A stretch of DNA of 64,000 nt from an uncultured Candidatus Saccharibacteria bacterium (GTDB taxonomy: Bacteria; Patescibacteriota; Saccharimonadia; Saccharimonadales; Saccharimonadaceae). The notes under the pieces were generated by a model. The model saw only the letters and a list, made by a program, of their open reading frames with translations. It searched no databases and was not told where the DNA came from. The position numbers and the translations under genes were made by a program. The stretch spans positions 25,683-89,682 of the forward strand of contig CAUUYF010000001.1 of assembly GCA_963549285.1 (NCBI GenBank), written 5' to 3'. Shown in pieces: positions 10,694-53,155 of this stretch (its first letter is position 1; each line of letters begins with the position of its first letter).

Positions 10694-11578
10694 ATGCAAG
10701 TAATGATCTTTTACTACTTCTCATTAGCCCTCCTCGGGGCAATCATGGGCTCGTTCGTCGGTGCCCTGACTTGGCGGATGAAGCGGGGGCTCAACTGGCT
10801 AAGTGGGCGGAGTGAGTGTGAGCACTGTCACCATCGCCTCGCCCCGACCGATATGATCCCGATCATCTCATATCTGGGGCTGGGTGGGCACTGCCGCTAC
10901 TGCCACAAGCGGATCGGACGGCTGGCGATCCGGCTGGAGGTGCTGACCTGCCTCAGCTTCGTTCTCTCCGGTGCGCTCTTTCCCTCGGTGCTGGAGCACA
11001 CCTGGCGTGATCCAAGCATCACCCTGGGGATTGCTTGTACTCCCGCTAGCCTCTGGTGTCGTTCGCCGGGGCTAGCTTGGCTAGCTTTCGGGCTGTGGTT
11101 AGCTTGCCTAGTGCTGATGGTCGCCCTCTTCGTCTACGACCTGCGCTGGCGCAAGCTACCGAACCGCCTGGTCTTTCCCCTGATCGGGCTTAGCCTGGTC
11201 TACTCGCTGGTGACCTTGCCGGTGCTACATGGTGGTGGGGTAGGAGGCTGGCTGATGGCGGTAGCCGGCGGTATGGCACCGATTGCCGGCATCTATGGTG
11301 TTATCTACCTAGTTTCTCAGGGTAAGTTAGTCGGGCTGGGTGATGTCAAGCTGGGGCTGGCGATCGGTCTCTTGGTGCCACAGTGGTGGCTGGGTCTGGT
11401 CATTCTTTTCCTGGCTAACTTGCTGGCGACGCTGGTCTCTCTGCCAGCGCTTCTGCGCCACAGGCTCAAGCGTACCAGCGCCATCCCCTTCGGCCCTTAT
11501 CTAATAATAGCTACCTATCTGGTCTTCCTGCTCAGCTGGCTGATCCAACCAGCTCTCCAGTCCTTCTTCACGCTATAG
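10694..11578 (+). CDS. pilD: prepilin peptidase / N-methyltransferase PilD (peptidase A24)
   Basis: Cys-rich N-terminus (CEHCHHRL...CRYCHKRI), polytopic membrane protein, GLGDVKL and IPFGPYL A24 motifs. Start moved to the second ATG because the -10 abuts the first. Confidence 0.88.
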   Translation: MQVMIFYYFSLALLGAIMGSFVGALTWRMKRGLNWLSGRSECEHCHHRLAPTDMIPIISYLGLGGHCRYCHKRIGRLAIRLEVLTCLSFVLSGALFPSVLEHTWRDPSITLGIACTPASLWCRSPGLAWLAFGLWLACLVLMVALFVYDLRWRKLPNRLVFPLIGLSLVYSLVTLPVLHGGGVGGWLMAVAGGMAPIAGIYGVIYLVSQGKLVGLGDVKLGLAIGLLVPQWWLGLVILFLANLLATLVSLPALLRHRLKRTSAIPFGPYLIIATYLVFLLSWLIQPALQSFFTL

Positions 11579-12132
11579 CATCAGAGCGGAGGTAGAGTCC
11601 GTAATTTCCCTCCATGCATAACTCTATAGTGTACGAGTAGTACAGGTGGTCTCCTCAGGCTCCAGCACGATGCTTAACACTAGTAACCGCAGAGAGGACT
11701 TGAGGTGTAATAACGCTTTACTATGTCAAGTTAGCCTGACTAGCATCAGCTGGACAGGTTGGCACCGTATAAACTACCACGTGCACTGGATAGCTTACTG
11801 ATATATCAACAGCCTTCGTCAACCACACTGTACTACTCGTACCTAGGAGTGCTTGTTTTAATCAAGGTCAGACTACGGAATGAAACCGGGAAATTACAGG
11901 TGCACCAAAAGGGTGCATGTTGTCTTTCATCTACATCGTCATTTCCTGAAGACTGTGCACGCTTGAAGCTCAGCAGTGCACGAGCCAGCCAGGCGGGTCT
12001 GAGGGAAATGATGATGTAGACGAAGAGTGAGGGCTGTAGTAACGAGTAATCCGGGGAAGAGGAGACCACCTGTACTACTCGTACAGAGAGGAGCTATACG
12101 TAGAGGGGAAATTACAAATCCTGCTCTGATGC
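11578..12132 (+). repeat. L element copy 1 (full length, both arms, carries nested S element)
   Basis: The 5' arm GCATCAGAGC...GTAATTTCCC...GTACGAGTAGTACAGGTGGTCTCCTC is mirrored by the 3' arm GAGGAGACCACCTGTACTACTCGTAC...GGGGAAATTAC...GCTCTGATGC (26 bp perfect). Internal modules are shared with copies at 13231, 30515, 36817 and 45857. Confidence 0.9.
11661..11758 (+). mobile_element. S element copy 1 (about 98 bp, MITE-like) inserted inside L copy 1
   Basis: The other four L copies read CTCCTCAGGC|(T/C)TGGC without interruption. Here 98 bp intervene, bounded by imperfect inverted ends CCAGCACGATGC / GCATCAGCTGG. Homologous to 18044-18150 (inverted) and 58512-58610. Confidence 0.8.
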
Positions 12133-12138
12133 TATCAT
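12130..12138 (+). promoter_or_regulatory. extended -10 (TGCTATCAT) for holA, partly built from the L1 right end
   Basis: TGC belongs to the terminal GCTCTGATGC of L1. The motif ends 6 nt before ATG 12145. Confidence 0.45.
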
Positions 12139-12144
12139 ATTGGT

Positions 12145-13080
12145 ATGATCTATTTCCTCCACGGTGACAACGACTACCTGATCAGCCAGCGAGTCAAAGA
12201 ATTACGCCAAGCATTTGCTCAGAAACACGGCACCGGTGCTATCACCACCATTGACGGCACCGAAGTAGCGCCGGCTGACCTGGCCTCTCAGCTAACTGCC
12301 CTTAGCCTCTTCGACCCTTATCGGCTAGTCATCGTCTCAGCCATTACCGCCCAGGCGGGCAACTGGACCATGCTGGAGACGAACCTGGCTCATATCCCCG
12401 AGCAAACCACCGTCATCCTGACTGATATTAAAGCTCTGAGCAAAGTGCGCAACCTCACCATCACTCGCACCACGAAGGAGCTGAGGCGCCTCGGCGCCAC
12501 GGTAGAGAAGTTTGACCTGGCTAAGAGTAGCTATCAGCTCCGACCGTGGCTGGAGGCGGAGCTCAAGCGCCACCAGCTGAGTGTCGAGCGAGGCGTTACT
12601 GATAAACTGCTCGAGCTAACGGCGGGTGAGGAGAACCAGCAAGCTCGTCTCAAGCTGGAGCTGGACAAGCTGGCGCTACTAAGTGGCGAATTAACGGTTC
12701 GGCTGGTCGAGCAGTATGTTCAGCCCAGCCCCCAGACTAATGCCTTTGCTATCCTAGAGGCAGGATTAGCTGGCGATCAAGCTAAGGTGGCGCAACTGCT
12801 TGACCGGCTGATTACAGCGGGGGAGGATAGTAATCGCTTCCTGGGGCTACTGGCTTCACAAGCCCTAGCCCTGGCCGGCGTCTTGACCGGTGCTAAGGTC
12901 AAGCTCAGCCCCTATCAACTGAATCAGACTCGCCAACTGGCTGAGCGCCTAGGCGATCGTCAGCTATCCCGGCGACTAGGCGAGGTTGTCGAGAAGCTCG
13001 CCCAGCTGGATGGCAAGGTTAAACTATCCGCACCGGACGAAGCTTGGCTACATATCCGCTCTACACTGAGCAATATATAG
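12145..13080 (+). CDS. holA: DNA polymerase III delta subunit
   Basis: MIYFLHGDNDYLISQRVKELRQAF start and about 310 aa helical C-terminus typical of HolA. Low-identity family, so moderate confidence. Confidence 0.7.
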   Translation: MIYFLHGDNDYLISQRVKELRQAFAQKHGTGAITTIDGTEVAPADLASQLTALSLFDPYRLVIVSAITAQAGNWTMLETNLAHIPEQTTVILTDIKALSKVRNLTITRTTKELRRLGATVEKFDLAKSSYQLRPWLEAELKRHQLSVERGVTDKLLELTAGEENQQARLKLELDKLALLSGELTVRLVEQYVQPSPQTNAFAILEAGLAGDQAKVAQLLDRLITAGEDSNRFLGLLASQALALAGVLTGAKVKLSPYQLNQTRQLAERLGDRQLSRRLGEVVEKLAQLDGKVKLSAPDEAWLHIRSTLSNI

Positions 13081-13099
13081 TGGATATCCGGCTGGACAG

Positions 13100-13195
13100 G
13101 CCCAGCTGGATGGTAAAACAAAGCAATCTACACCAGACCAAGCTTGGCTCTACATCCGCTCCACGCTGAGTAATATATAGCGGAGTAATATATAG
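13100..13195 (+). repeat. degenerate duplicate of the last ~80 bp of holA (plus a third 15-bp stub)
   Basis: 13100-13180 aligns with 13001-13080. Translated in frame it gives AQLDGKTKQSTPDQAWLYIRSTLSNI* versus the holA tail AQLDGKVKLSAPDEAWLHIRSTLSNI*. GAGTAATATATAG recurs at 13183-13195. Confidence 0.8.
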
Positions 13196-13230
13196 TGAAC
13201 GGGCTAGCCCCGTATAAAAGATTAGGCCCC

Positions 13231-13820
13231 GTAGCTCAGAGCAAAATCCGTAATTTCCCTCTATATATAACTCTATGGCATACGAGTAGTACAGGTGGTC
13301 TCCTCAGGCTTGGCACCGTATAAACTACCACGTGCACTGGATAGCTTACTGCTATATCAACAGCCTTCGTCAACCACACTGTACTACTCGTACCAGGAGC
13401 ATTCATCTCCGACTGAAGTCGGACTAAGAAATGAGACCGGGGAAATTACGGGTGTATCAGCTAGCTTACTTATGTATCAACAGCCTTCGTCAACCATCGA
13501 GTACTGCTCTTTACTCACAGGAAAGCTTTCATGGGGGGGCGGATTCATCACAGACAACCGAAGACTAATCAATGTCCTACAAGTAATCAATCGCCAGTGG
13601 TACATTATGGGCGCCAGGTCTGAGGTTGATGTGATGAATCTATCAGCCCCCCATATAAAGTATTAGATAGCCCTTAATACATAAAGGGTGTCTTTTGTCT
13701 TTCACTCTATTAGTCATTTCCTGAAGACTGTGCACGCTTGAAGCTCAGCAGTGCACGAGCCAGCCAGGCGGGTCTGAAGGAAATGATAATAGAGTGAAGA
13801 ATGAGGGCTATAGTGATTAG
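13231..13820 (+). repeat. L element copy 2 (no 3' arm; expanded middle)
   Basis: Same 5' arm, module B and domain D as the other copies. Extra partial module-B duplicate at 13463-13509 and an inserted hairpin unit with 20-bp inverted repeats at 13533-13552 / 13630-13652. Confidence 0.88.
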
Positions 13821-13822
13821 CG

Positions 13823-14164
13823 TTACGCATCCTGCCGGGGCTTCTTGGTTCGGCTAGCCGGCTTAGTGGTACTTTTCTTGCCGGCGGGCTTACTCTTGGC
13901 GGCCGTCTTAGTCGGGACCTTGACGCCAGACTCTTTGGCGAGCTTAGCCAAGTGCTTGATCCGTCTAGCGGCAGCTTGCTTAGAGATGACATTCTTCTTC
14001 GCAGCGGTATCAATGGTGCTCTGAGCCTGACACATAGCACTAAAGCTAGGGCTACTCTGGAAAGCCTTGATGGCGGTGCGCATAGCCCGCTTGGTGCGCA
14101 GGTTTTGGGCATAACGGCGCTGATCCTGCTTCATCTGCTTGATAGCTGATTTGATAAGTGGCAT
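13823..14164 (-). CDS. rpsT: 30S ribosomal protein S20 with Lys/Ala-rich C-terminal extension
   Basis: MPLIKSAIKQMKQDQRRYAQNLRTKRAMRTAIKAF is canonical S20. A TTGACC-17-TAGAAT promoter lies upstream on the minus strand. Confidence 0.9.
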   Translation of the reverse strand: MPLIKSAIKQMKQDQRRYAQNLRTKRAMRTAIKAFQSSPSFSAMCQAQSTIDTAAKKNVISKQAAARRIKHLAKLAKESGVKVPTKTAAKSKPAGKKSTTKPASRTKKPRQDA

Positions 14165-29485: not shown

Positions 29486-30439
29486 TTACAGATTGCTCTG
29501 AAACTTGTCGTGCACTTCCTTGAGATGAGGGTCGGTCACGTGAGTGTAGATCTGGGTAGTGGCGATATTGCTATGCCCCAGCATTGACTGGACCGAGCGT
29601 AGGTCGGCGCCATTCATCAGCAGGTCGGTGGCGAAAGAGTGGCGCAAGGTGTGGGGAGTGACGTGCTTGGTGATGCCGGCTGCTTGAGCATATTTACTGA
29701 CGATTCGCTGGATCGAGCGGGGAGTCAGGCGGCGAGCTTCACTGAGGTCGACGCCATCGCCCTCGACGACATTGCGAGAATTATTGAGAAAGAGCGGCTT
29801 GAGCCCGTCTGACCTGGTCTGCAGATATTGCTCGATCGTATCGGCAGCCGATTGGCTGATGAAGATGGGGCGATCCTTACCACCCTTGCCCCTGATGGTG
29901 AATTCTCGTCGATCCAGATTGAGCTGGTCGCAATTGATGCTACATAGCTCGCTGACTCGCATGCCACCCGAGAAGAGCAGCTCGATGATGGCTCGGTCTC
30001 GCAGTCCACTAGGCTGGTCAAGCGGAATGGCGTCGAATAGCCGAGCCACTTCTTCCGCCAGTAGGAAGGAGACCTGTTTCTTCTGAGTGCGGGGTAGGTT
30101 GACCCGGCTGGCATCCAGGGTGGGGATGTCTCGCTGCGAGCAATATTTGAGAAAGCTCCTCAGAGCGATCAGATGATAACTCTGGGTGATGAGCGAGAGT
30201 TCACGCCCTTGTTCGTCGACGAAGCGGTTCAGCCACAGACGATATTTTCTGACCAGTTCGTCGGTGATTTGGCTGACGGGGATGTTGCCGGCGAATTCGA
30301 CCAGTCGGTCCATGTATAGGTTGTAGTTCTCGGCGGTGCGGATGGATCGGCCTCGCTCTATTTCGATGTACTCGACGAAGTCCATGATCAGGTCGGCGAG
30401 GTAATATTCATCATTTTTAGCGTCTTTGTCATGGGTCAT
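29486..30439 (-). CDS. tyrosine recombinase, XerC/XerD family
   Basis: RDRAIIELLFSGGMRVSEL, HTLRHSFATDLLMNGADLRSVQSMLGHSNIATTQIYTHV (R..H-R-Y catalytic set). Start set at MTHDKDAK; the longer track ORF runs into repeat sequence. Confidence 0.85.
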   Translation of the reverse strand: MTHDKDAKNDEYYLADLIMDFVEYIEIERGRSIRTAENYNLYMDRLVEFAGNIPVSQITDELVRKYRLWLNRFVDEQGRELSLITQSYHLIALRSFLKYCSQRDIPTLDASRVNLPRTQKKQVSFLLAEEVARLFDAIPLDQPSGLRDRAIIELLFSGGMRVSELCSINCDQLNLDRREFTIRGKGGKDRPIFISQSAADTIEQYLQTRSDGLKPLFLNNSRNVVEGDGVDLSEARRLTPRSIQRIVSKYAQAAGITKHVTPHTLRHSFATDLLMNGADLRSVQSMLGHSNIATTQIYTHVTDPHLKEVHDKFQSNL

Positions 30440-30514
30440 TAGGCGTATTTTAGCATTTTGCCTAATGTCGCACAAGATGAAGAAATTAAAGTCTCGCCAA
30501 TTTGAGCCCCTCAT

Positions 30515-30985
30515 TCCTCATCTACATCATCATTTCCTTTGTAGCCGCCCGGCTAGTTACTTGTCACTATAGTCTTCATTCTTCACTCTATGTTAATCTG
30601 TAGCTCAAAGCAAAATCTGTAATTTCCCTCCAACGTATAACTTGAGTTTGTACGAGTAGTACAGGTGGTCTCCTCAGGCTTGGCACCGTATAGACTACCA
30701 CGTGCACTGGATAGCTTACTGATATATCAACAGCCTTCGTCAACCACACTGTACTACTCGTACCTAGGAATGCCTGCTTTAATTGAGATTAGATTAAGAA
30801 ATGAGACTAGGGAAATTACAGACATAACCTTCCTTCCGCCTCAAAGGGTGTCTTTCGTCCTTCGTCTGCGTCAGTCATTTCCTGAAGACTGTGCACGCTT
30901 GAAGCTCAGCAGTGCACGAGCCAGCCAGGCGGGTCTGAGGAAAATGATAATAGAGCGAAGAATGAGGGCTGGAGTAGCGAGTGAT
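30515..30985 (+). repeat. L element copy 3 (no 3' arm) with an extra inverted end-module on its left
   Basis: Core from GTAGCTCAAAGC...GTAATTTCCC (30619) to ...GAATGAGGGCTGGAGTAGCGAGTG. At 30563-30589, CACTATAGTCTTCATTCTTCACTCTAT is the inverted match of the element's own 3' end. 30520-30538 resembles the domain-D stem. Confidence 0.85.
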
Positions 30986-30994
30986 TAAATCATC

Positions 30995-31082
30995 AAGTTC
31001 CTTACAAAAAGTGTAGCGATAGCGCCAAAGTTCGTCACAAAAAGTGTAGTAAATCACCAAAAGTTCCTTACAAAAAGTGTAA
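30995..31082 (+). repeat. three direct 22-bp repeats at 33-bp spacing (iteron/operator-like)
   Basis: AAGTTCCTTACAAAAAGTGTAG at 30995, AAGTTCGTCACAAAAAGTGTAG at 31028 and AAGTTCCTTACAAAAAGTGTAA at 31061, immediately upstream of the ATPase gene promoter region. Confidence 0.8.
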
Positions 31083-31124
31083 AAACATGGCATAATTAGT
31101 AGTGGAAGAGAGGAAGTTGACATT

Positions 31125-32453
31125 ATGTACATGTATCGTCAAAAGATTGAAGACCTGAAGGCTTGGCAGAAGAGCCCACACCGTAAACCACTGATCGTTC
31201 GAGGTGCTCGCCAAGTAGGCAAGACAGAGCTGATCAAAGAGTTCGGCAGGACTCAGTATCAGCAGACGGCATACGTCAGCCTGGACAACAACTCTCGCAT
31301 GGCGGCACTCTTTGACGGAGACTTTGACGTTAACCGATTGATCCAGGGCCTGAAAGCCGAGACGAACGTGGACATTGAGCCCGATAGCACCTTGATCGTA
31401 CTGGATGAGATCCAGGAGATACCCAAGGCGCTCACGGCGCTAAAGTACTTTTGCGAAAATGCCCCTCAGTATCATATTGTTGTAGCCGGCAGTCTGTTGG
31501 GTGTAGCCACTCATCAAGGTGTGTCCTTTCCGGTCGGCAAAGTGGATTACTTAGAGCTGGCACCTCTGTCGTTCCGAGAGTTTCTGCTGGCCTTAGGCGA
31601 GAAGCATCTGGTCGAGATGATCACGTCTCCGTCGGTGGATCAAGAGTTACTGGCGTCTTTTCATGATAGACTGATCGATTATATTAAGGCCTATTGCTAT
31701 GTCGGCGGGATGCCGGAGGTGGTGGTCAGTTATGCCGAGCAGAGATCGTGGAACGAGGTGCGACGGATTCAGAATAATATCTTGTTTGATTATGCTAATG
31801 ACTTTAGCAAGCATACACCCGAAGCGTCTTTTGCGAGAAGGATCGAGCAGGTCTGGCGTATCATCCCGAGTCAGCTAGCCAAGGAAAATGCCAAATTTAT
31901 TTTTGGCATGATTCGTGCGGGAGCGAGGGCAAAGGAATATGAATTGGCACTGGCGTGGCTGGAAGAAGCGGGGCTGGTGCGTCGGGTAAATCGGCTGGAA
32001 GCTCCCCGGATACCGATCATGTCGTATGCCAATGCGAGTGCCTTTAAGCTGTACCATCTAGACGTCGGGCTGTTAGCAGCCATGGTACGTCTAGACGAGC
32101 GAGTCTTGCTGGAAGGCAACCAAGTCTTTACCGAGTTTCGGGGATCGTTAGCCGAGCAGTTAGCCCTGCAAGAATTGCAAGTCGATGGCGGTTTGGATGT
32201 CTGCTATTGGGCGATGGATGGGCAATCACGAGCCGAAGTCGAGTTCGTCGTCCAGACCGGCAGTCAGATCGTGCCGGTCGAGGTCAAGAGTGGCACAAAT
32301 CTACGAGCTAAGAGCCTGGCGGTATATATGAATAAGTACCAACCACGACTGGCAGTCCGTTCATCGGTAGCGAATTACAAGAAAACAGACAATCTATATG
32401 ACGTACCCTTCTATCTGCTGAATAACTTCTTTCAGAACATCCAAAAGTACTGA
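31125..32453 (+). CDS. AAA+ ATPase of the AAA_14/DUF4143 type
   Basis: Walker A GARQVGKTELIKEF, Walker B LIVLDEIQEIP. C-terminal region with EVEFVV...VPVEVKSG resembles the DUF4143 restriction-endonuclease-like tail. Confidence 0.78.
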   Translation: MYMYRQKIEDLKAWQKSPHRKPLIVRGARQVGKTELIKEFGRTQYQQTAYVSLDNNSRMAALFDGDFDVNRLIQGLKAETNVDIEPDSTLIVLDEIQEIPKALTALKYFCENAPQYHIVVAGSLLGVATHQGVSFPVGKVDYLELAPLSFREFLLALGEKHLVEMITSPSVDQELLASFHDRLIDYIKAYCYVGGMPEVVVSYAEQRSWNEVRRIQNNILFDYANDFSKHTPEASFARRIEQVWRIIPSQLAKENAKFIFGMIRAGARAKEYELALAWLEEAGLVRRVNRLEAPRIPIMSYANASAFKLYHLDVGLLAAMVRLDERVLLEGNQVFTEFRGSLAEQLALQELQVDGGLDVCYWAMDGQSRAEVEFVVQTGSQIVPVEVKSGTNLRAKSLAVYMNKYQPRLAVRSSVANYKKTDNLYDVPFYLLNNFFQNIQKY

Positions 32454-36816: not shown

Positions 36817-37207
36817 AATATGAGGGTAAAGCCCGTGATTGCCGTTGGCACCTGTAATTTCCCCTCCACGTATAGCTCTATAGTGTGCGAGCAGTACAGG
36901 TGGTCTCCTCAGGCTTGGCACCGTATAAACTACCACGTGCACTGGATAGCTTACTGATATATCAACAGCCTTCGTCAACCACACTGTACTACTCGTACCT
37001 AGGAGTGCTTGTTTTAATCAAGGTCAGACTACGGAATGAAACCGGGAAATTACAGGTGCACCAAAAGGGTGCATGTTGTCTTTCATCTACATCGTCATTT
37101 CCTGAAGACTGTGCACGCTTGAAGCCAGAGCTGTGTCACGAGCCAGCCAGGCGGGTCTGAAGGAAATGATGATGCAGATGAAGAATGAGGGGCTGAAGGT
37201 GCCGAAC
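36817..37207 (+). repeat. L element copy 4 (no 3' arm; domain D loop partly degenerate)
   Basis: Same modules as copy 1, including the type-I variable hairpin. The inner hairpin of domain D is altered (GAAGCCAGAGCTGTGTCAC versus GAAGCTCAGCAGTGCAC). GGCACC/GGTGCC closes the unit. Confidence 0.88.
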
Positions 37208-37252
37208 AACAAAAAGACCCGCCACTTTTGGATTTCTCCATGGTGGGGCGGG
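37206..37252 (-). terminator. rho-independent terminator (minus strand)
   Basis: The minus strand reads CCCGCCCCAC...GTGGCGGG followed by TCTTTTTGTTGTT. Confidence 0.65.
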
Positions 37253-37449
37253 CAACTAATGTACTAGTTTTTGGTCGTTCCTGAGATACTATCTAGCTCC
37301 CGGTGCAGCCTCGCAGCTCTGCGCTGGGAGCTAGGAAAGTGTGGTGATCATCGCTCAAGCGACTAACCTAGATACTTTCAAAGTAAATGTGGAACTGTGC
37401 TAGGCGAGATGAGCGCTGGCTCTTCGCCTTTGAACTCTTGTTCATAAGC
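37208..37449 (-). ncRNA. candidate small RNA (about 240 nt) between promoter and terminator
   Basis: Minus-strand TTGACA-17-TATAGT (37456-37484) and the terminator at 37206-37252. Strong internal hairpin CTAGCTCCC...GGGAGCTAG. Only a 26-codon ORF without RBS. Confidence 0.4.
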
Positions 37450-37455
37450 ATTGTT

Positions 37456-37484
37456 ACTATACCCTAGCCGTCACTGTATGTCAA
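37456..37484 (-). promoter_or_regulatory. consensus-like sigma-70 promoter (minus strand)
   Basis: TTGACA, a 17-nt spacer, then TATAGT on the reverse complement. Confidence 0.6.
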
Positions 37485-37653
37485 TGGTGGACGATGGTGG
37501 TGAATATATCATAGGGTGCATAATGACGACCGAATAAGCCATAATAATTTGTGGAAAAGGCAGGAATAACGGGTAGTATCAGTAGTGAGAGATGATGGGG
37601 TTGCTGAAGGGAAGCTGCAATTTTCTGTGGAAAAGTCTGGGGTAAATAGGCGC

Positions 37654-37680
37654 AAAAAAGCCACTACCTGAGGTAGTGGC
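37654..37680 (-). terminator. terminator after tRNA-Val (minus strand)
   Basis: GCCACTACC-tca-GGTAGTGGC followed by TTTTTT on the minus strand. Confidence 0.75.
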
Positions 37681-37688
37681 GATAATGC

Positions 37689-37765
37689 TGGTGGGTCGAA
37701 AGAGGCTCGAACTCCTGACCTCATCCACGTCAAGGATGCGCTCTAGCCAACTGAGCTACCGACCC
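37689..37765 (-). tRNA. tRNA-Val (anticodon GAC), CCA encoded
   Basis: Reverse complement GGGTCGGTAGCTCAGTTGGCTAGAGCGCATCCTTGACGTGGATG..., anticodon loop TTGACGT. Confidence 0.9.
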
Positions 37766-37815
37766 ATATGGCATTCATACTAGCAAATCAGCCAGCTATA
37801 TGCAAAAGTTCGGGG

Positions 37816-37824
37816 TGCTATAAT
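37816..37824 (+). promoter_or_regulatory. extended -10 (TGCTATAAT) for thrS
   Basis: Ends 7 nt before ATG 37832, and no SD sequence fits in between. Confidence 0.55.
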
Positions 37825-37831
37825 ACATAGC

Positions 37832-39664
37832 ATGAGTGAGATAGATATTACTAGTGTCAGGCACAGCCTGGCGCACGTCTTAGCGGCCGCCACCCGTCGC
37901 CTCTATGGCGACAGCGTCAAGCTTGGTGTCGGTCCGGCCATCGAAAACGGCTTCTACTATGACATGGACCTGGGTGAGACCCATCTGACTGATGACGACC
38001 TGCCTAAGATTGAGGCGGAGATGCGCCGGATCATAGCAGAGAAGCAACCCTTCGAGCGTAGCACCAAGACTATTGCCGAGGCGGAGAAATGGGCACAAGA
38101 GAACGATCAAATCTACAAGCTGGAGCTGATCCGGGATTTTCAGCATCACGGTACTACCAAGGCGGGCGCCAAGGGCAAAGAGCAGCCGGCTAGTAGCGAG
38201 ATGTCTTTCTATACCAATGGCGACTTTACTGACTTGTGTATGGGTGGACACGTGGCAAATACAGGTGATATCCCGGCTGATGGCTTTCACCTGACTAAGA
38301 TTGCCGGAGCATATTTCCGAGGCGATGAAACCAAGCCGATGATGCAGCGGGTCTACGGCGTCGCTTTCGCCACTAAGGCCGAGCTTGACGACTATCTGGC
38401 TCGTCAAGCCGAAGCGAAGTCCCGAGATCACCGCAAGTTGGGGCGAGAGCTGGATCTCTACGTCACCAGCGACCTAGTCGGAGCGGGGTTACCGATGTTT
38501 ACTCCCCGAGGCACAGTGCTGAGAGATGAGATTGCCCGGCTATCGACCGAGATCAGAGCGGGCATTGGCTTTGAGAAGGTTTGGACCCCTCACATGACTA
38601 AAAAAGATCTCTACGTCAAATCAGGTCACTGGGCGAAGTTTGGCGGCGAGCTGTTCTTGGTCAAGTCGCAAGAGACCAGTGACCAATTCGTTCTTAAGCC
38701 GATGAATTGTCCTCATCACGGACAAATCTATGCCTCTAGGGTGCGGAGCTATCGGGATCTACCGCAGCGCTATATGGAGGTCACCACTGATTACCGAGAT
38801 GAAAAGTCAGGCGAGCTGGGCGGGCTAGCTCGGGTGCGAGCCCTGACTCAGGATGATTCGCACGACTTTGTCCGCCCCGACCAGATAGAAGGCGAGATTG
38901 CCAACTTGCTATCGGCGGTCAAGGTGATCTATGAACTATTCGATATGAAGCTCCGGGTGCGCCTGAGCTATCGGGATGACTCTGATGCTTATCTGGGCGA
39001 CCGGGCGCTCTGGGACTCAGCACAAAAGCAGCTCAAGCAAGCTGTCTTGCGTCTGGGTGATGTCGAGTATTACGAGCAAGATGGCGAGGCCGCCTTCTAC
39101 GGTCCGAAGATTGATTTCATGGCGACCGATGCCTTGGGGCGGGAACATCAGCTGGCGACCGCTCAGCTGGATTTCGTCCAGCCGGAGCGCTTTGAGCTGG
39201 AGTATATCGACCAAGCCGGTCAGCCTCAGCGACCGGTGATGATCCACTGCGCCTTGCTCGGTTCGCTGGAGCGGTTTCTGTCAGTCTATATTGAGCATAC
39301 CGCCGGTAAGTTTCCTGTCTGGGTGGCGCCGGAGCAGTTACGGATTATCAAGGTCAAGGATGCACCGGCGGTGGACGATATGGTTGACCGACTGGTCAAG
39401 CAAGCGCAGCTTCATCGGATTCGCTATACGGTGGATGATAGCAACGGCTCGATCGGTAAGAAGATTCGCTCGGCAGAGCTATATAAGGTGCCTTACACGG
39501 TGGTAATTGGTGACCGAGAGGCGGAGTCAGGGCGAATCGGTGTTCGCATCCGCAAGGATCTGGTTGGTGAGGCGACTGACGAGGCGAAGCAGTTCGCCCC
39601 CGATGAGCTGGCGGAAGCGATCGAACAAGAGCATGACCAGCGAGCTAAGCTGTCGACACTGTAG
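37832..39664 (+). CDS. thrS: threonyl-tRNA synthetase (no N-terminal TGS domain)
   Basis: Begins at the editing/SAD domain (HSLAHVLAAA...GPAIENGFYYD). Class II motifs (FVLKPMNCPHH, RVRALTQDDSHDF, FYGPKIDF) and an anticodon-binding domain. Confidence 0.93.
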   Translation: MSEIDITSVRHSLAHVLAAATRRLYGDSVKLGVGPAIENGFYYDMDLGETHLTDDDLPKIEAEMRRIIAEKQPFERSTKTIAEAEKWAQENDQIYKLELIRDFQHHGTTKAGAKGKEQPASSEMSFYTNGDFTDLCMGGHVANTGDIPADGFHLTKIAGAYFRGDETKPMMQRVYGVAFATKAELDDYLARQAEAKSRDHRKLGRELDLYVTSDLVGAGLPMFTPRGTVLRDEIARLSTEIRAGIGFEKVWTPHMTKKDLYVKSGHWAKFGGELFLVKSQETSDQFVLKPMNCPHHGQIYASRVRSYRDLPQRYMEVTTDYRDEKSGELGGLARVRALTQDDSHDFVRPDQIEGEIANLLSAVKVIYELFDMKLRVRLSYRDDSDAYLGDRALWDSAQKQLKQAVLRLGDVEYYEQDGEAAFYGPKIDFMATDALGREHQLATAQLDFVQPERFELEYIDQAGQPQRPVMIHCALLGSLERFLSVYIEHTAGKFPVWVAPEQLRIIKVKDAPAVDDMVDRLVKQAQLHRIRYTVDDSNGSIGKKIRSAELYKVPYTVVIGDREAESGRIGVRIRKDLVGEATDEAKQFAPDELAEAIEQEHDQRAKLSTL

Positions 39665-40063: not shown

Positions 40064-43000
40064 TCAGCGCTGAGCAAAGATTGGTGCTAGGTGTACGCTC
40101 ATAAAGAGTGGCTCGCTACCGGTATTGGGTACGCCGGGTGCTTTGGGTGTAGTGGGTGCGCCGGGTACGGGTGACGGGTTTGGCTTGCCGTCATCCCACG
40201 GCGGTAGCTTGACGCAAGTAGATGGTATAGTGCCATCGACCGGCTGAATAGTCTCATACCTAGGGCCTCTGTTTTCGCCAATGATTCGATTGTAGGCGGC
40301 GCCACTCAGCCCGACACAGATAGTATCAGGCTGACTCTGTGGCACGAAGGCAAAGTCGTAGAAGGGGAGATCCTTAGGGTAGTCAGTATAGCCTGAATCA
40401 CCCCGGTACCTTGTCTCTACCTCGCCACTGAGGAGTTTAATCTTCTGCTTACCGCCGAGCAGAGTGCCGACGTCTATCGGGTCAACGCTCCTACCCACGA
40501 AGTACTGACTATGCCTATTGATATGCGTGTCAGTTATGGCGTAGATCGCTCCATCGGCACCACGGGCGACAGGGCCGAGAACATTAAAGAAGCTATCTAG
40601 GTGAGGCAATTTATCACTAGTTGATATCTTTGCCATATCGTGGATAGAGTCATTGCCTTCTCGGTAGCCGTAGTACCATAGACCACCCTGTCTGTCGATG
40701 GCATAATGACCGGCATAAGATAATTGCTTGAACCCGCCTCGTTTTTTAATCTCCGAGTTGGTGATCTCGCTGGTGGTACCGTCTTCCAGTACCCTCAGCA
40801 GCTTGTGATCGGAGGTCAGGGTGTAGTAACCTCCCTTATCCGGCTCGGGCTCTTCCGCTGTGGGTGTGCGATGCTTGATATGATCGACATCGAGGATGGT
40901 GACGCCACTGCTGAGCCGTGGCTTGATCCGATTTTTTGCCTCGTCGTGGTACTGGAGCTGGCTTGTGTCCAGATCGTAGTTCAGAGCAAAGATAGTGTCT
41001 TTGCTAAAGGCGAGGTAGTCACTCATGTTGTCAGGATGACTAGCTACATAGGAAGATAAACCGTTACCATTGCTGGGATCTATGCTTCTACCGAAGCCAA
41101 TGATGTGATGGGGTGACAACTCGCTCAGTGCGACCGGATGTATGATGGGTTTCTTGTCTTTATCAGATAGTCTGTGCCCCCAGTAGTACACTTTGCCGGA
41201 GCTGGTAATGGCTGCAAACGTATGGTAGTGATTTACTAGCTTGACAATCTTGTCGCCGTTAAAGAATCTAGTGATATCCTGGGGGTTACTGTAGTAGACG
41301 GGTGGCTTCTTATCAAGTGTCAAGCCGTAGTCGGTGTCGTTGCCAACCCCGCCTGCGATGTTATTACCCCAGGCATACAGCTTGCCGCTTTCGGTCAGCA
41401 CGACGGTCGTGCCGGCATAGTCTTGGTCTCGCCAGGTCTCCATGTTGCCCATTTTTACCTTACCGTAGTAGTCAAATGTGGCGGGTGAGTGAACCAGCTG
41501 GACGACTTTGTCATCTCTCAGCCCGGTATTGGGTACGCCGGGTGCTTTGGGTGTAGTGGGTACGCCGGGTGGCTGAGGCTGATTAGGAGAGGGCGTGGGT
41601 GCCGGTGGTTTAATTGGGTCGGGATTACCGGATGGTAGCTTGACGCAGGTCAGAGTGGCTTGCTTGCCGGGCTGTTGGCGTAGCTTACCCGTATTGGACG
41701 GAGGAAGCGCACCTAGCGACGGGGCATTATATCTAGATGCTCCGTCAATAGCGGTGCACACCAGATCTCGGTTATCTTCTTCGACGACGAATGAATAATC
41801 GTGGAGCAATTTATCGGCATATCCGGTGGCCTTGATAGTGTCGATATCGCCATGAAAGAGCCTGATTTCTTGTCGGCTGATGATGGTGGTCATGTCGATA
41901 GGTTTATACTTTAGGGTAAAACTATAGTTACTACCTTCTAGAAAGTAGATGTGGTTATCGGCACTGCGAACGACCAGAGGACGACTAAAGTGGTCCATAT
42001 CGGACTCACCATTGGAATTAACAAATTCTCGCAGAGCCGGTAGGACACCCTCAGCTACCTCTGTGGACATATCGACGATGTTACCACCGGGGTCTTCTTG
42101 AAGCTTATGACCATAAAACCACAACCCGCCCCGGTTATCGATGGCGTAATGGTGATGAATCTGCTTGATGCCACCTCGCTCAGCTATTTTAGAATTGGTA
42201 ATCTCGACGGCGGTACCGTCATATCCTACCTTAAAGAGCTTATTGTTTGAGGCAAGAACATAGATACCGCCCCTGTCGACTGATCCACCGACCCAGTGTT
42301 CTACAAAGTCGACTTGCCGAATGGCAGCTCCGTTTAGTTGAGGCTTAATAATCTCGGAAGCGTTGCCTCCGGAGTCATCATAATCAAGGGATGCATTATA
42401 AAAGATAGTATCGTCGCTATAGGCAAACCAGCCGTTAATATGACTCATATTTTCATGATCTACACCATCTGTTCCGCTATAGCCGGTAATGTGATAGGAG
42501 TCCAGTGCCCGGTACTTGGTTGGGTGATTGATAATTGCTTCGGGCTTGAGGTCATGGTGGTAGGCTGAGCCCCAGCGATATAGCTTACCTGACTCGGTAA
42601 TGGCTATGGCGAGACTGCCTTTGTTGGTTAGTCTAGCTATCCTATCCCCATTAAAGTACTTAGTTATTTCCTGGGGTGCATTATAGTAACAGGGTGGTCG
42701 TTTGGGTAATATATCCTTTCCTTCTGCATTCTTGACGTAGGTGCAGACAGCGCCATTACCTACTCCGCCGTACATATTGTTGCCCCAGGCGTAAACCTTG
42801 CCGTTCTGAAGCAGGGCGATAGTCGTACCGGCGTAGGCGTTATCGTTATCATTTCCATCCCCCCAGCTGAATCCATCATAAGGCTGGCCGGGAGCGGCTA
42901 GGTGCAGTATCCGGACGATGTGGTTGGCTGTGTTTCCGCCCGACGACTGACCGGACTGTCTGGTGGTGATGCAGGTAGCTATTGCCGGACCGGCTATTAG

Positions 43001-45856: not shown

Positions 45857-46328
45857 GGTGCTAAGCTTCTTCGTTAATCTTTCATTTATATATCATATCT
45901 GTAATTTCCCTATATATACATAACTCTATGCGTACGAGCAGTACAGGTGGTCTCCTCAGGCCTGGCGACGTAGCTAGCACCACTGGCAATTGCTAGCTTA
46001 CTGCTGTATCAACAGCCTTCGTCAACCACACTGTACTACTCGTACCTAGGAATGCCTGCTTTAATTGAGATTAGATTAAGAAATGAGACTAGGGAAATTA
46101 CAGACATAACCTTCCTTCCGCCTCAAAGGGTGTCTTTCGTCCTTCGTCTGCGTCAGTCATTTCCTGAAGACTGTGCACGCTTGAAGCTCAGCAGTGCACG
46201 AGCCAGCCAGGCGGGTCTGAAGGAAATGATGACGAGACGAAGAGTGGGGGTGCTAAGTAGCAGAGCCTGAGGAGACCACACTGCACTACTCGCACCAACT
46301 CAAGCTATGCGTATAGGGAAATTACAGA
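45857..46328 (+). repeat. L element copy 5 (both arms present, 3' arm decayed)
   Basis: 5' arm TCTGTAATTTCCC...GTACGAGCAGTACAGGTGGTCTCCTCAGG and 3' arm CCTGAGGAGACCACACTGCACTACTCGCAC...GGGAAATTACAGA. Type-II variable hairpin shared with copy 3, and a divergent module-B hairpin. Confidence 0.88.
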
Positions 46329-46387
46329 CTTTACTGTGAGACACGAGGGCGGATCATGGAAGAGAGGGCAATGGTATAATTGTAGCC

Positions 46388-47047
46388 ATGATAGCCATGG
46401 CCATTGTCCTAGGCACCACCCTAGGCGTCACTCTAGTGTCGCTAGTCTTGCATGAGATAATGCACGGACTAGTGGCGCACTGGCTGGGCGACGACACAGC
46501 CAAGCGAGAAGGGCGTCTGACGCTTAACCCGGCACCTCATATCGACCCCTACCTGACCATCGTACTGCCGGCAATAGCCATATTGGCAACCGCCTCGGGC
46601 ACACCGATGCCGATCTTCGGCGGGGCTAAGCCGGTACCGATAAACACCAAACGGCTAAAAGGTGGCGACTGGGGTGCCGCCCTAGTTGCGCTAGCAGGAC
46701 CGCTGACCAACCTAGTGCTAGCTTTTATCTGCTTTATCATATCTAGGTGTCTACGGATTGACCAGGCTGGTCTAGCAGGTCAGCTCATCGGTCAAGCGGA
46801 AGTAATCAACTTGAGCCTCTTTGCCTTTAACCTGCTACCCATGCCACCGCTAGATGGCTCACGCTTGCTCTATGCTTTTGCCCCGCCGGGAGCTAGGCGA
46901 GTGATGGATAAGATGGAGCGGTACGGCGTGGCGGTGGTTTTCCTGGTCGTATTATTAGCCGGGACGATTGTGAGCGGACTGGTGATCAATATCGCTCGAG
47001 GGGCAGAGGGCTGCTTCACCGTCGTCGCTAAGTGGTTCGGCCTCTAG
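46388..47047 (+). CDS. site-2 protease family (peptidase M50) membrane metalloprotease
   Basis: LHEIMHGLVAHWLGD (HExxH), NLLPMPPLDGSRLL. ATG is 7 nt after TGGTATAAT. Confidence 0.85.
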   Translation: MIAMAIVLGTTLGVTLVSLVLHEIMHGLVAHWLGDDTAKREGRLTLNPAPHIDPYLTIVLPAIAILATASGTPMPIFGGAKPVPINTKRLKGGDWGAALVALAGPLTNLVLAFICFIISRCLRIDQAGLAGQLIGQAEVINLSLFAFNLLPMPPLDGSRLLYAFAPPGARRVMDKMERYGVAVVFLVVLLAGTIVSGLVINIARGAEGCFTVVAKWFGL

Positions 47048-48110: not shown

Positions 48111-48230
48111 GTGTGGGCGCATGGCGTGACGCCGTGTTATTGCGCTAGTCGGTAGCGGTCGTCCAAGTTCGTGCGCTGGCTCTCTGCTATATATCAGCAA
48201 GGCTCATTTGTTATAATCTTCATAAGCACT

Positions 48231-52943: not shown

Positions 52944-52951
52944 AGGTTGCT

Positions 52952-52995
52952 GTCGGGTCAGACAAAATGTAAACATTTTGCTTGCCCCGACAGAC
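52952..52995. repeat. 44-bp direct repeat copy 1, internally palindromic
   Basis: GTCGGGTCAGACAAAATGTAAACATTTTGCTTGCCCCGACAGAC. It recurs at 53112-53155 with one mismatch and contains a 19-bp imperfect hairpin. Confidence 0.85.
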
Positions 52996-53111
52996 ATCAT
53001 TATATCCCCGGTGGGTATATAATGACTTCGGTGAAGCTCAGATCAAACCCTGAGATATCTCTCATAACCGAGGAAGACTTATGCTCCTGGCAGACACCAT
53101 TATTTTTGCCT

Positions 53112-53155
53112 GCCGGGTCAGACAAAATGTAAACATTTTGCTTGCCCCGACAGAC
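53112..53155. repeat. 44-bp direct repeat copy 2
   Basis: GCCGGGTCAGACAAAATGTAAACATTTTGCTTGCCCCGACAGAC. Confidence 0.85.

What the first reader, a model, noticed from the sequence alone, without database searches (positions are those of the whole stretch)
11578..12132. L elements: five same-strand, intergenic, modular 0.39-0.59 kb repeats with a conserved two-domain fold; unassigned to any class I know
Copies lie at 11578-12132, 13231-13820, 30515-30985, 36817-37207 and 45857-46328, all in the same orientation and all between genes.

Shared architecture:
- 5' arm: GTAATTTCCC...GTACGAGTAGTACAGGTGGTCTCCTCAGGC.
- Module B ends in CAACCACACTGTACTACTCGTACC, which is complementary to the 5' arm.
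- A variable hairpin follows.
- GGGAAATTAC is complementary to the extreme 5' end.
- Domain D: a stem closed by TCATTTCCT/AGGAAATGA around the invariant TGAAGACTGTGCACGCTTGAAGCTCAGCAGTGCACGAGCCAGCCAGGCGGGTCTGA.
- An end module (GAAGARTGAGGGCT).
- In two copies only, a 3' arm that mirrors the 5' arm (26/26 bp in copy 1).

The variable hairpin has three unrelated sequences that still fold: CTTG-ttttaat-CAAG, TTAAT-tgagattag-ATTAA and TCCGAC-tgaa-GTCGGA. ORFs in the track crossing these copies are conserved at the nucleotide level and broken by indels, so they are not coding.

Such density of a large repeat is unexpected for a streamlined genome. It could be a novel structured RNA gene family, a BOX/Correia-style modular MITE, or both.
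Basis: seen in the sequence. Interest (0 to 1): 0.85.

Follow-up and report, generated by a model that had tools for sequence, protein, structure and literature searches.

The report
Mosaic palindromic repeats in oral Saccharibacteria
Five copies of a 0.4-0.6 kb non-coding, hairpin-rich repeat made of interchangeable palindromic modules fill the gaps between housekeeping genes of an ultra-small oral bacterium (Saccharibacteria, Nanoperiomorbus group). It is most likely an undescribed family of transposase-less, BOX/Correia-like interspersed DNA, not a demonstrated RNA gene.

Summary
All five same-strand intergenic copies sit at the stated coordinates, and no chance matches are expected. The element matches no Rfam family and nothing in the phage, plasmid or viral collections.

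The "L element" is a mosaic of at least four nested palindromic modules:
- AB: about 200 nt, with long inverted arms.
- X: a 97-nt insert.
- D: about 105-120 nt, with its own 25-bp inverted ends.
- D': a diverged paralogue of D.
Some copies also carry an extra terminal arm.

At least 118 further stretches were found. All lie in oral Candidatus Saccharibacteria MAGs (N. periodonticus and relatives), and many sit at contig ends.

Modules occur alone, in tandem and recombined. Orthologous sites can be empty, hold D only, or hold the element in either orientation. Across genomes, orientation follows neither GC skew nor neighbouring genes. No transposase, no fixed target duplication and no conserved promoter was found. 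Covariation is weak.

Best reading: a new, clade-specific family of MITE/BOX/BIME-like mosaic repeats, shaped mainly by recombination.

Unexplained: the module cores are far more conserved than neutral sites. They also carry strand-specific G.U and tandem G.A features (D on +, AB on -). A structured RNA or single-stranded-DNA role therefore remains possible.

The parts
11576..11600 (+). Copy 1: outer extension of the left inverted arm (ATAGCATCAGAGC...). It overlaps the TAG stop of the prepilin-peptidase gene.
   Evidence: Mirrored by GCTCTGATGCTAT at 12120-12132. The related extension TAGCTCAGAGCAAAGTCT is conserved upstream of many of the 66 arms listed.
11601..11897 (+). Copy 1: AB module. 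It comprises the 5' arm 11601-11660, the mid region, the internal arm 11820-11843, the variable hairpin and GGGAAATTAC at 11888-11897. It is interrupted by insert X.
   Evidence: nhmmer hits at 11601-11661 and 11756-11897.
11661..11757 (+). Copy 1: module X, a 97-nt palindromic insert (TCCAGCACGATGC...GCATCAGCTGGA) nested after CTCAGGC.
   Evidence: Alignment gap in the other four copies. The same insert is in L013. 22 of 64 AB copies fall in the 290-319 nt length class.
11898..11922 (+). Copy 1: link hairpin (GTGCACC-AAAA-GGGTGCA) followed by a T-rich run.
   Evidence: Terminator-like site at 11900-11918. The 3' half AAAGGGTG is conserved, while the 5' half differs between copies.
11923..12035 (+). 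Copy 1: D module (outer stem, CCUGAAGAC/GUCUGAGGG junction, two inner hairpins) plus end module GAAGAGTGAGGGCT.
   Evidence: MFE -53.3 kcal/mol, z -6.9.
12059..12132 (-). Copy 1: terminal arm, an inverted copy of the 5' arm including the outer extension.
   Evidence: Inverted repeat I4, 52 nt at 81%. 26/26 core. nhmmer minus-strand hit at 12115-12059.
13231..13449 (+). Copy 2: outer extension (GTAGCTCAGAGCAAAATCC) plus AB module 13250-13449.
13456..13647 (+). Copy 2: nested partial second B segment (13456-13532) and diverged D' module (13531-13647: GGGGGCGGATTCATCAC..CCGAAGAC..GTCTGAGG..GTGATGAATC..CCCC).
   Evidence: The same D' is in L036, L078, L098, L062, L089 and L016. A short form is in L065, L077 and L050.
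13670..13820 (+). Copy 2: link hairpin (13670-13689), D module (13698-13802) and tail. It ends 2 nt from the stop of rpsT.
30494..30600 (-). Inverted fragments of the D 3' half and end module, immediately upstream of copy 3. They overlap the first listed start codon of the Xer-like recombinase ORF.
   Evidence: Inverted repeats I3 and I5. nhmmer D hit at 30556-30516 on the minus strand. Sequence.
30601..30985 (+). Copy 3: outer extension, AB (30619-30819), link (30820-30858), D (30859-30963) and tail.
36817..37203 (+). Copy 4: D-tail-like remnant (36817-36853), AB (36854-37053), link, D (37079-37185, variant inner hairpin) and end module. There is no terminal arm.
   Evidence: The site is empty in L103 and holds an element in the opposite orientation in L055.
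45857..46251 (+). Copy 5: left flank, AB (45901-46101, second mid-hairpin haplotype), link (46102-46140), D (46141-46245) and tail.
46252..46328 (-). Copy 5: terminal arm, an inverted copy of the 5' arm.
   Evidence: nhmmer minus-strand hit at 46325-46252. The same right junction GGGAAATTA|CAGAC appears in alleles of either orientation.

Best explanation
The 'L elements' are members of a previously undescribed, clade-specific family of non-coding mosaic interspersed repeats. The family lives in oral Saccharibacteria of the Nanoperiomorbus (TM7 G5) group. It is the same kind of thing as pneumococcal BOX, neisserial Correia/NIME and enterobacterial BIME/REP elements.

Shown:
- Each copy is assembled from separable palindromic modules. 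AB has long inverted arms. X is a small insert nested in AB. D has its own 25-bp inverted ends. D' is a diverged paralogue of D.
- The modules also occur alone, in tandem and recombined.
- Elements occupy intergenic DNA in either orientation.

Inferred:
- The family spread as selfish DNA. Either a trans-acting enzyme not encoded nearby did this, or copies moved by uptake and recombination in these naturally competent bacteria.
- Today it evolves mainly by recombination between copies: gene conversion, deletion at microhomologies, duplication and inversion across inverted arms.
- When transcribed by read-through, the modules would fold into long hairpins. Those could terminate, stabilise or expose transcripts to RNase III. 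I treat such effects as side-effects, not the reason the elements exist.
For: 1. Repeat family and range:
- Five full copies plus fragments in 64 kb, 2.5 kb or 3.9% of the window.
- At least 118 further stretches, all in Candidatus Saccharibacteria MAGs including N. periodonticus.
- None in viral, phage or plasmid collections.

2. Modularity:
- In the census, D stands alone 9 times and AB alone 6 times.
- AB-link-D is the commonest arrangement; tandem D-D and B-B forms and nested X and D' also occur.

3. Non-coding:
- ORFs crossing the copies hit 231 unnamed, Pfam-less 'proteins' of 60-175 aa with ragged coverage.
- A 2-nt indel variant lies inside the D core.

4. Presence/absence and orientation polymorphism at orthologous sites:
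- The copy 2 site is empty in L027 and L086.
- The copy 4 site is empty in L103 and holds an inverted element at the same junction in L055.
- The copy 5 site shows 8 architectures in 10 assemblies, including D-only alleles in both orientations.

5. No orientation rule:
- 68:67 relative to GC skew.
- 12 sense to 10 antisense in co-directional gene gaps.

6. Recombination mosaics:
- The three D outer-stem haplotypes are mismatched in about 21 of 83 copies.
- Copies 1 and 4 share a 211-nt block at 100% identity.

7. Near-neutral divergence overall: orthologous copies are 0.81-0.93 identical, against 0.83-0.93 at third codon positions.

8. Weak RNA signals:
- No Rfam family.
- No conserved promoter.
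- D covariation is not significant on the robust measures.

9. Repeat behaviour in assemblies: 87 of 133 held contig ends stop in an element.

10. Context from the literature:
- Saccharibacteria are naturally competent (PMC10633639).
- BOX is modular, 67-637 bp (PMC3049150).
- Correia elements can invert (PMC10969869).
Against: - No cognate transposase was found. Arms more than 1 kb apart enclose only housekeeping genes. No multi-context transposase-like ORF appears in about 0.84 Mb of loci.
- There is no fixed target-site duplication. Junction repeats are 0-2, 5 (ATTTG) and 6 (AGTAGC) bp, and part of AGTAGC belongs to the element tail.
- GC content is about 50%, so the element is not AT-rich.
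- Composite size of 0.4-0.6 kb is large for a MITE.
- Module cores (arm cores, D core) are almost invariant across paralogues and species, although third codon positions differ by 7-17%. This needs selection or strong homogenisation.
- Strand-specific features are conserved. D has G.U pairs at two invariant positions and a tandem G.A junction on the + strand, and D, D'-long and D'-short all fold better on +. AB folds better on the - strand in 39 of 39 copies.
- D and D' keep the same CC-GA-AGAC/GUCU-GA-GG junction, with two compensatory pairs between the D' forms.
- Much of the comparative evidence comes from short-read MAGs, where repeats can be mis-joined.
Confidence: 0.6

Rival explanations
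1. A family of structured non-coding RNA genes or RNA modules. D/D' would be transcribed from the + strand and AB possibly from the - strand, with the conserved tandem G.A junctions serving as a protein-binding motif.
For: - Cores are much more conserved than third codon positions.
- On the + strand of D, G.U is invariant or near-invariant at columns 34-64 (70/70) and 18-95 (65/70), and U.G occurs in 19 of 70 copies at columns 27-85.
- D, D'-long and D'-short all fold better on +: -53.3 vs -48.6, -38.4 vs -31.5, and -34.8 vs -29.4 kcal/mol.
- AB gives an alifold energy of -58.5 on - against -33.7 on +, with 197 G.U cells against 15 A.C.
- The inner D hairpin shows a double compensatory change, GTGCAC/GTGCAC to GTGTGC/GCACAC, in 19 of 70 copies.
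- D and D' share the junction despite a different sequence elsewhere.
- The variable hairpin keeps pairing through G.U-rich variants, with + more stable in 36 cases against 12.
Against: - No Rfam hit.
- No conserved promoter or terminator.
- Orientation is random relative to neighbouring genes.
- 14 of 26 D pairs never vary, and the count of covarying pairs is reached by 328 of 500 shuffles.
- About 25% of copies carry mismatched outer stems.
- Truncated, tandem and module-only copies are common.
- Overall divergence is near neutral.
- The two modules prefer opposite strands, which does not fit one transcript.
- Compensatory-looking changes in palindromes can arise by template switching without selection (established knowledge).
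Confidence: 0.17
2. Non-autonomous elements moved as single-stranded DNA hairpins by a HUH/Y1 enzyme encoded once elsewhere in the genome. They would be analogous to REPIN-RAYT or IS200/IS605-derived palindrome-associated elements.
For: - The hairpin features are strand-specific (G.T and tandem G.A tolerated on one strand only), which suits recognition of folded single-stranded DNA.
- No fixed target duplication.
- The outer arm begins with GTAG, as REP heads do (the REP feature is from my own knowledge).
- Copies are retained at orthologous sites, as REPINs are.
Against: - No IS200/RAYT-like ORF in the window or in 118 element-bearing loci by tblastn.
- No orientation bias relative to GC skew, 68:67. 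IS200/IS605-type elements are expected to show one.
- The modules are far larger than REPs.
- AB and D favour opposite strands.
- Junctions are ragged.
Confidence: 0.1
3. Substrates of a site-specific recombinase: invertible segments or Xer-dependent elements. The inverted arms would be the recombination sites.
For: - Either orientation is found at the same junctions.
- A Xer-like tyrosine recombinase gene (29486-30514, -) abuts copy 3 and an inverted D fragment.
- rpsJ lies between inverted elements and is inverted relative to tuf and rplC in five assemblies.
Against: - The recombinase scores like a housekeeping XerC/XerD/XerA and sits in conserved synteny in relatives at 86% identity.
- Most copies lack a second arm.
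- No allele pair was seen with fixed arms and a flipped interior at one locus.
- rpsJ has the same orientation in all five assemblies, so no switching is shown.
- No conserved promoter inside the element.
Confidence: 0.06
4. An assembly artefact or a chance set of repeats.
For: - Copies 1 and 4 share a 211-nt 100% identical block.
- Elements sit at 87 of 133 contig ends, so assemblers struggle with them.
Against: - 0 matches expected by chance.
- The copies differ from each other.
- The family recurs in about 45 independent MAGs and many ENA assemblies, with unique flanks on both sides.
Confidence: 0.01

Closest known systems
BOX elements of Streptococcus pneumoniae (boxA-boxB(n)-boxC)
   Same: - Modular composite intergenic repeats of variable length (67-637 bp, PMC3049150).
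- Strongly base-paired.
- Create spurious ORFs.
- No clear active transposase.
- Apparently dormant and shaped by recombination.
- The host is naturally competent.
   Different: - No sequence relationship was tested or is expected.
- The modules here are themselves palindromes nested in one another, not a linear A-B-C array.
- The arms are 60-95 nt.
- The host is a CPR bacterium, probably with a genome under 1 Mb.
Correia elements and neisserial intergenic mosaic elements (NIME)
   Same: - Inverted-arm intergenic repeats, in many copies, in a competent oral/nasopharyngeal bacterium.
- No known cognate transposase (my own knowledge).
- Elements can be found inverted, and their transcripts are cut by RNase III (PMC10969869).
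   Different: - Correia elements are 100-200 bp with 26-bp arms and a TA duplication (the TA duplication is from my own knowledge).
- The composites here are 390-590 bp, with no consistent duplication and no conserved promoter.
BIME/REP and REPIN-RAYT systems of proteobacteria
   Same: - A mosaic of palindromic units in both orientations between genes.
- Long-term retention at orthologous sites.
- The hairpin is the conserved feature.
   Different: - REP units are 20-40 nt, and a RAYT gene is flanked by them (my own knowledge).
- The units here are 100-200 nt, and no RAYT was found.
Rickettsia palindromic elements (RPE)
   Same: Palindromic repeats proliferating in a reduced genome of a host-dependent bacterium with no transposase in sight (PMC10969869; my own knowledge).
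   Different: - RPEs often insert in frame into genes.
- The elements here are strictly intergenic in the window. They only touch gene ends: the stop of the peptidase gene and the first listed start of the Xer ORF.

Membership tests
MITE (miniature inverted-repeat transposable element) | Terminal inverted repeats | tested here: met
   - Copies 1 and 5 have 52-75 nt terminal inverted arms.
- Every AB unit has arm-like inverted ends.
- D has 25-bp inverted ends.
- Three of the five window copies lack the second terminal arm.
MITE (miniature inverted-repeat transposable element) | Target-site duplication of fixed length | tested here: not met
   Filled/empty pairs give 0-2, 5 and 6 bp junction repeats or ragged replacements. 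Only five pairs were usable.
MITE (miniature inverted-repeat transposable element) | Small, non-coding, multi-copy | tested here: met
   390-590 bp. Five copies per 64 kb and at least 118 stretches elsewhere. ORFs are ragged and unnamed.
MITE (miniature inverted-repeat transposable element) | Cognate autonomous IS with matching inverted repeats | tested here: inconclusive
   None was found in the window or in about 0.84 Mb of related loci. Whole genomes and ISfinder could not be searched.
MITE (miniature inverted-repeat transposable element) | Insertion polymorphism between relatives | tested here: met
   Empty sites in L027/L086, L103, L070/L059 and L009. Deletion rather than insertion cannot be excluded.
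MITE (miniature inverted-repeat transposable element) | AT-rich relative to the genome | tested here: not met
   The 2-kb windows that hold the copies have 0.49-0.52 GC, within the window's range of 0.45-0.57. The GC content of the elements on their own was not measured.
REP/REPIN-RAYT | Short (20-40 nt) imperfect palindromes, with a RAYT gene flanked by them | tested here: not met
   The units are 100-200 nt. tblastn with RAYT and IS200 TnpA found nothing with an E-value below 0.3.
IS200/IS605-derived palindrome-associated elements | Orientation bias relative to replication | tested here: not met
   Element strand against GC skew is 68:67 in strongly skewed loci.
Known structured RNA family (Rfam 15) | Covariance-model match at or near the gathering score | tested here: not met
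   Only tRNAs and RNase P pass in the window. The best match in 11500-13900 is a plant miRNA model at 24 bits against a cut-off of 96.
Structured ncRNA gene (generic) | Significant covariation supporting the fold | tested here: inconclusive
   - D: 98% of cells are paired, but 14 of 26 pairs never vary.
- 3 pairs have double changes, a count reached by 328 of 500 shuffles, although cells with double changes reach 0 of 500.
- AB: 3-5 pairs with double changes.
- The sample is closely related and was selected with an exact D 21-mer.
Structured ncRNA gene (generic) | Own promoter/terminator and consistent orientation or context | tested here: not met
   Promoter-like sites are not above the shuffle level and are not conserved. 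12 sense against 10 antisense.
Structured ncRNA gene (generic) | Discrete transcript | not testable with these tools
   No transcriptome data are available here.
Integron attC / Xer-type recombination site | Dedicated integrase and core-site motifs (attC R''/R' sites, or a dif-like 28-mer) | not tested
   The neighbouring recombinase scores as XerC/XerD/XerA. It reaches 147 bits on the integron-integrase model, whose cut-off is 265. No motif search was done.

The most novel reading that the evidence does not exclude
The modules are not passive junk but strand-specific folded nucleic acids, either RNA or single-stranded DNA. Their almost invariant cores would form the recognition site of an unknown protein. 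For D and D' on the + strand this is the symmetric junction CC(U)-GA-AGAC / GUCU-GA-(A)GG. For AB on the - strand it is a helix with two tandem G.A pairs. The protein could be a new kind of hairpin-dependent mobilisation enzyme or an RNA-binding regulator, in a phylum with almost no known mobile elements or small RNAs.
Probability: 0.2. Interest if true: 0.75.

Novelty: new member of a known kind. Interest (0 to 1): 0.45.

Why it matters
- Saccharibacteria and other CPR bacteria are regarded as streamlined, repeat-poor genomes. Here a single repeat family takes about 4% of a 64-kb stretch.
- I found no description of such a family in the searchable literature.

Practical consequences:
- The repeats end 87 of 133 held contigs, so they are a main cause of fragmented G5 MAGs.
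- They generate hundreds of spurious 'hypothetical proteins' in public databases.
- They mark sites of rapid structural change that could be used for strain typing.
- They may have mediated rearrangements, such as the inverted rpsJ between tuf and rplC.

If the conserved strand-specific cores turn out to be functional, they would give a first handle on RNA- or hairpin-based biology in this hard-to-study phylum.

Tried and rejected
- Rfam at gathering and permissive thresholds gave nothing relevant.
- BLAST of copy 5 against the phage and plasmid collections, and exact scans of IMG/VR with the D and arm cores, gave no match.
- Search for an autonomous partner. Arm pairs more than 1 kb apart enclose RecJ, S10 and other housekeeping genes, not transposases. 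Clustering of 648 ORFs from all loci found no transposase-like multi-context family. The only clearly mobile-looking gene is an AAA_14/DUF4143 ATPase that is not bounded by elements.
- Coding hypothesis rejected.
- Replication-strand and transcription-strand rules rejected.
- Intrinsic promoter not supported.
- Target-site duplication: no consistent length.
- Exact look-up of the HolA protein for strain-level comparison found no record. The L28 look-up worked but returned relatives at only 93-96% identity.
- A first version of the orthologue rate test timed out and was redone.
- Supplement search of the human-microbiome structured-RNA survey (PMC8040213) for the D core found no match in the 200 of 408 files held.
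- The single metagenome scan was not used, because any pattern specific enough would mostly return the same oral Saccharibacteria copies.
Full report
**Observation**

- The repeat finder recovers them as families D1-D5 and D7, plus inverted pairs I1-I5.
- The D core GAGCCAGCCAGGCGGGTCTGA occurs five times exactly, against 0 expected. The arm core AGTACAGGTGGTCTCCTCAGGC occurs five times, plus once reverse-complemented at 12055-12076.
- A five-way alignment and motif coordinates confirm the described order: 5' arm, mid region, internal arm, variable hairpin, GGGAAATTAC, link, D, end module, and an optional mirror arm in copies 1 and 5.

1. Copy 4 has a variant inner D hairpin, and copies 4 and 5 have variant end modules.
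2. Copy 1 carries a 97-nt palindromic insert (X, 11661-11757).
3. Copy 2 carries a nested partial B segment and a diverged D-like module (D', 13531-13647).
4. An inverted D fragment lies at 30494-30600.

Profile searches find no further pieces in the window. Together the elements make up 2.5 kb, or 3.9% of the window.

**Surroundings and organism**

The neighbours are ordinary housekeeping genes:
- A24 prepilin peptidase, DNA polymerase III delta (HolA), ribosomal proteins S20 and L28, ThrRS and an M50 peptidase.
- A Xer-like tyrosine recombinase and an AAA_14/DUF4143 ATPase.

Rfam finds only tRNAs and RNase P RNA in the window.

Every one is from a Candidatus Saccharibacteria MAG, including Ca. 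Nanoperiomorbus periodonticus (TM7 G5, HOT-356), a Nanoperiomorbus sp. and UBA1103. Syntenic loci are 86-96% identical to the window. The window is therefore a Nanoperiomorbus-group genome.

**Anatomy: a mosaic of palindromic modules**

- **AB** (about 200 nt in 39 of 64 copies).
  - Both strands start GTAATTTCCC and end GGGAAATTAC.
  - The arm cores GTACGAGTAGTACAGGTGGTCTCCTCAGGC and ATCAACAGCCTTCGTCAACCACACTGTACTACTCGTAC are almost invariant.
  - Many copies carry a further outer extension, (G)TAGCTCAGAGCAAAGTCT.
- **X** sits in 22 of 64 AB copies at one position.
- **D** (105-120 nt) has its own 25-bp inverted ends (CATTCTTCACTCTATTATCATTTCC) and occurs alone.
- **D'** exists in a long and a short form. 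It shares with D only the outer-stem logic and the junction CC-GA-AGAC / GUCU-GA-GG.

A census of 163 clusters shows:
- D alone 9 times and AB alone 6 times.
- AB-link-D as the commonest form.
- Tandem B-B and D-D forms, and extra arms in either orientation.

The 'two-domain fold' is therefore two independent hairpin modules that usually travel together.

**Not coding, and not a known RNA**

- Permissive Rfam searches give nothing.
- An ORF across copy 3 hits 231 unnamed proteins of 60-175 aa, with no Pfam domains and ragged coverage. That is the signature of gene callers reading through repeats.
- The D core has a +2-nt variant.

**Dynamics**

Orthologous sites differ between relatives:
- The copy 2 site is empty in L027 and L086, where holA and rpsT abut.
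- The copy 4 site is empty in N. periodonticus (L103). In L055 it holds an element in the opposite orientation, at the same junction to within 1-2 nt.
- The copy 5 site carries D alone in + (L028) or - (L034) orientation.
- Ten assemblies encode the identical L28 protein, with flanks 93-96% identical to the window. At the copy 5 site they show eight architectures, in both orientations, while the right junction GGGAAATTA|CAGAC stays constant.

Junction repeats are 0-2, 5 and 6 bp, so there is no fixed target duplication. In one case the repeat overlaps the element's own tail. That looks like microhomology rather than staggered cleavage.

Signs of recombination between copies:
- The D outer stem has three perfectly self-complementary haplotypes. 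About 21 of 83 copies combine arms of different haplotypes.
- Copies 1 and 4 share 211 identical bases.
- Orthologous copies are 0.81-0.93 identical, close to third codon positions at 0.83-0.93.

Across all loci:
- Orientation is independent of GC skew (68:67).
- It leans only weakly towards the majority ORF strand (88:64).
- It is independent of co-directional neighbours (12:10).

The window's five-for-five same strand is therefore not a property of the family.

**Search for a partner enzyme**

- Arms more than 1 kb apart enclose RecJ or S10, not transposases.
- No IS200/RAYT-like sequence was found.
- No transposase-like ORF family appears among 648 ORFs of the loci.
- The Xer-like gene beside copy 3 scores as a housekeeping XerC/D/A and lies in conserved synteny.

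**Structure tests**

Every module folds far better than shuffles, on both strands, as any palindrome must.

Formal counting on 70 distinct D copies:
- 98% of cells are paired.
- 14 of 26 pairs never vary.
- Three pairs show double changes, a count reached by 328 of 500 shuffles.

So covariation is weak.

Strand asymmetry is the interesting part.
- D has G.U at two invariant or near-invariant positions and a tandem G.A junction on the + strand.
- It folds better on + in 73 of 85 copies, as do both D' forms.
- AB folds better on the - strand in 39 of 39 copies, by a mean of 11 kcal/mol. On that strand GGUUGACGAAGGCU/AGCCUGAGGAGACC forms a continuous helix with two tandem G.A pairs.
- The two D' forms differ by two compensatory pairs.
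- The variable hairpin keeps pairing through G.U-rich variants.

These features, and the near invariance of the cores, are not explained by neutral junk.

**Interpretation**

The weight of evidence favours a selfish or neutral interspersed mosaic repeat family. It rests on:
- modularity, nesting and tandem forms;
- presence/absence polymorphism and either orientation at the same sites;
- recombinant stems and ragged junctions;
- near-neutral overall divergence;
- no promoter and no orientation rule.

The closest analogues are BOX, Correia/NIME, BIME/REP and RPE. BOX is modular at 67-637 bp, and both BOX and SPRITE lack a convincing transposase (PMC3049150). Correia elements can invert, and their transcripts are processed by RNase III (PMC10969869).

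Like the hosts of BOX and Correia elements, Saccharibacteria are naturally competent (PMC10633639). That offers a route for copies to spread and recombine, but this step is inference.

I found no paper describing repeats, MITEs or such RNAs in Saccharibacteria.

I file it as a new member of a known kind. I keep a 0.2 probability for a functional, strand-specific structured-nucleic-acid reading.

**Caveats**

- Most comparative data come from short-read MAGs, and 87 of 133 held contig ends stop inside an element. Individual mosaics and orientations may therefore be mis-assemblies, especially where arms exceed the assembler's k-mer.
- The loci were selected with an exact D 21-mer, which inflates apparent D conservation and narrows the taxonomic range seen.
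- The transposase search covered only DNA near elements.

Noticed in passing
window 37205-37690 (- strand): A conserved non-coding stretch of about 480 nt lies between copy 4 and tRNA-Val.
- A terminator-like hairpin follows the tRNA directly, and a second one (GCCCGCCCCACC..GGTGGCGGGTCTTTTTGTTGTT) closes the stretch at 37205-37250.
- There is no ORF of 80 aa or more, no Rfam hit and no tmRNA.
- The fold z-score is -3.7.
- The stretch is 94-99% identical in L055, L084, L103 and L118.
It is a candidate unknown ncRNA.
   Followed up: partly
L129 1-6453; L098, L077, L075, L042: The S10 gene (rpsJ) lies on the opposite strand to tuf and rplC-rplD and is flanked on both sides by elements with inverted arms. 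This holds in all five assemblies that cover the region. It suggests a repeat-mediated inversion inside the otherwise highly conserved tuf-S10 operon junction.
   Followed up: partly
window 13000-13184: An 85-nt tandem duplication (79% identical) of the 3' end of holA lies directly upstream of copy 2. Relatives without the element (L027) have a single copy.
   Followed up: partly
window 30986-32453; L027 1543-3024; L086; L066: The AAA_14/DUF4143 ATPase gene is a variable gene found in several contexts. It is a 1.5-kb insertion between rpsT and rpoD in L027 and L086, but lies next to copy 3 in the window. Its upstream region (30986-31124) carries three direct repeats, AAGTTCCTTACAAAAAGTGTA.
   Followed up: partly
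window 48171-52943; L013 4930-5042: The 1590-aa ORF is absent from L013, where about 110 nt containing a D fragment joins the flanks. Other relatives (L021, L034, L115) are only about 65% identical across part of it.
   Followed up: no
window 29486-30514 (-): A Xer-like tyrosine recombinase scores similarly on the XerC, XerD and archaeal XerA models. The first listed start codon of its ORF lies inside an inverted D fragment, so the true start is probably further downstream.
   Followed up: partly
window 52950-52995 and 53110-53155: A 46-nt hairpin-forming direct repeat (98% identical), 160 nt apart, next to two tRNA genes.
   Followed up: no
window 11759-11969 and 36915-37125: Copies 1 and 4 share a 211-nt block at 100% identity, although they lie 25 kb apart. 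This reflects either recent gene conversion or assembly cross-joining.
   Followed up: no
window 37810-37834 and 46365-46390: TGNTATAAT-type -10 boxes lie 6-7 nt before the ATG of ThrRS and of the M50 peptidase. This suggests leaderless transcripts.
   Followed up: no
window 40119-40166 and 41523-41570: A 48-nt repeat (98% identical) lies inside the 1011-aa ORF on the - strand. The syntenic gene in the loci is an RCC1/WD40_RLD-type repeat protein.
   Followed up: no
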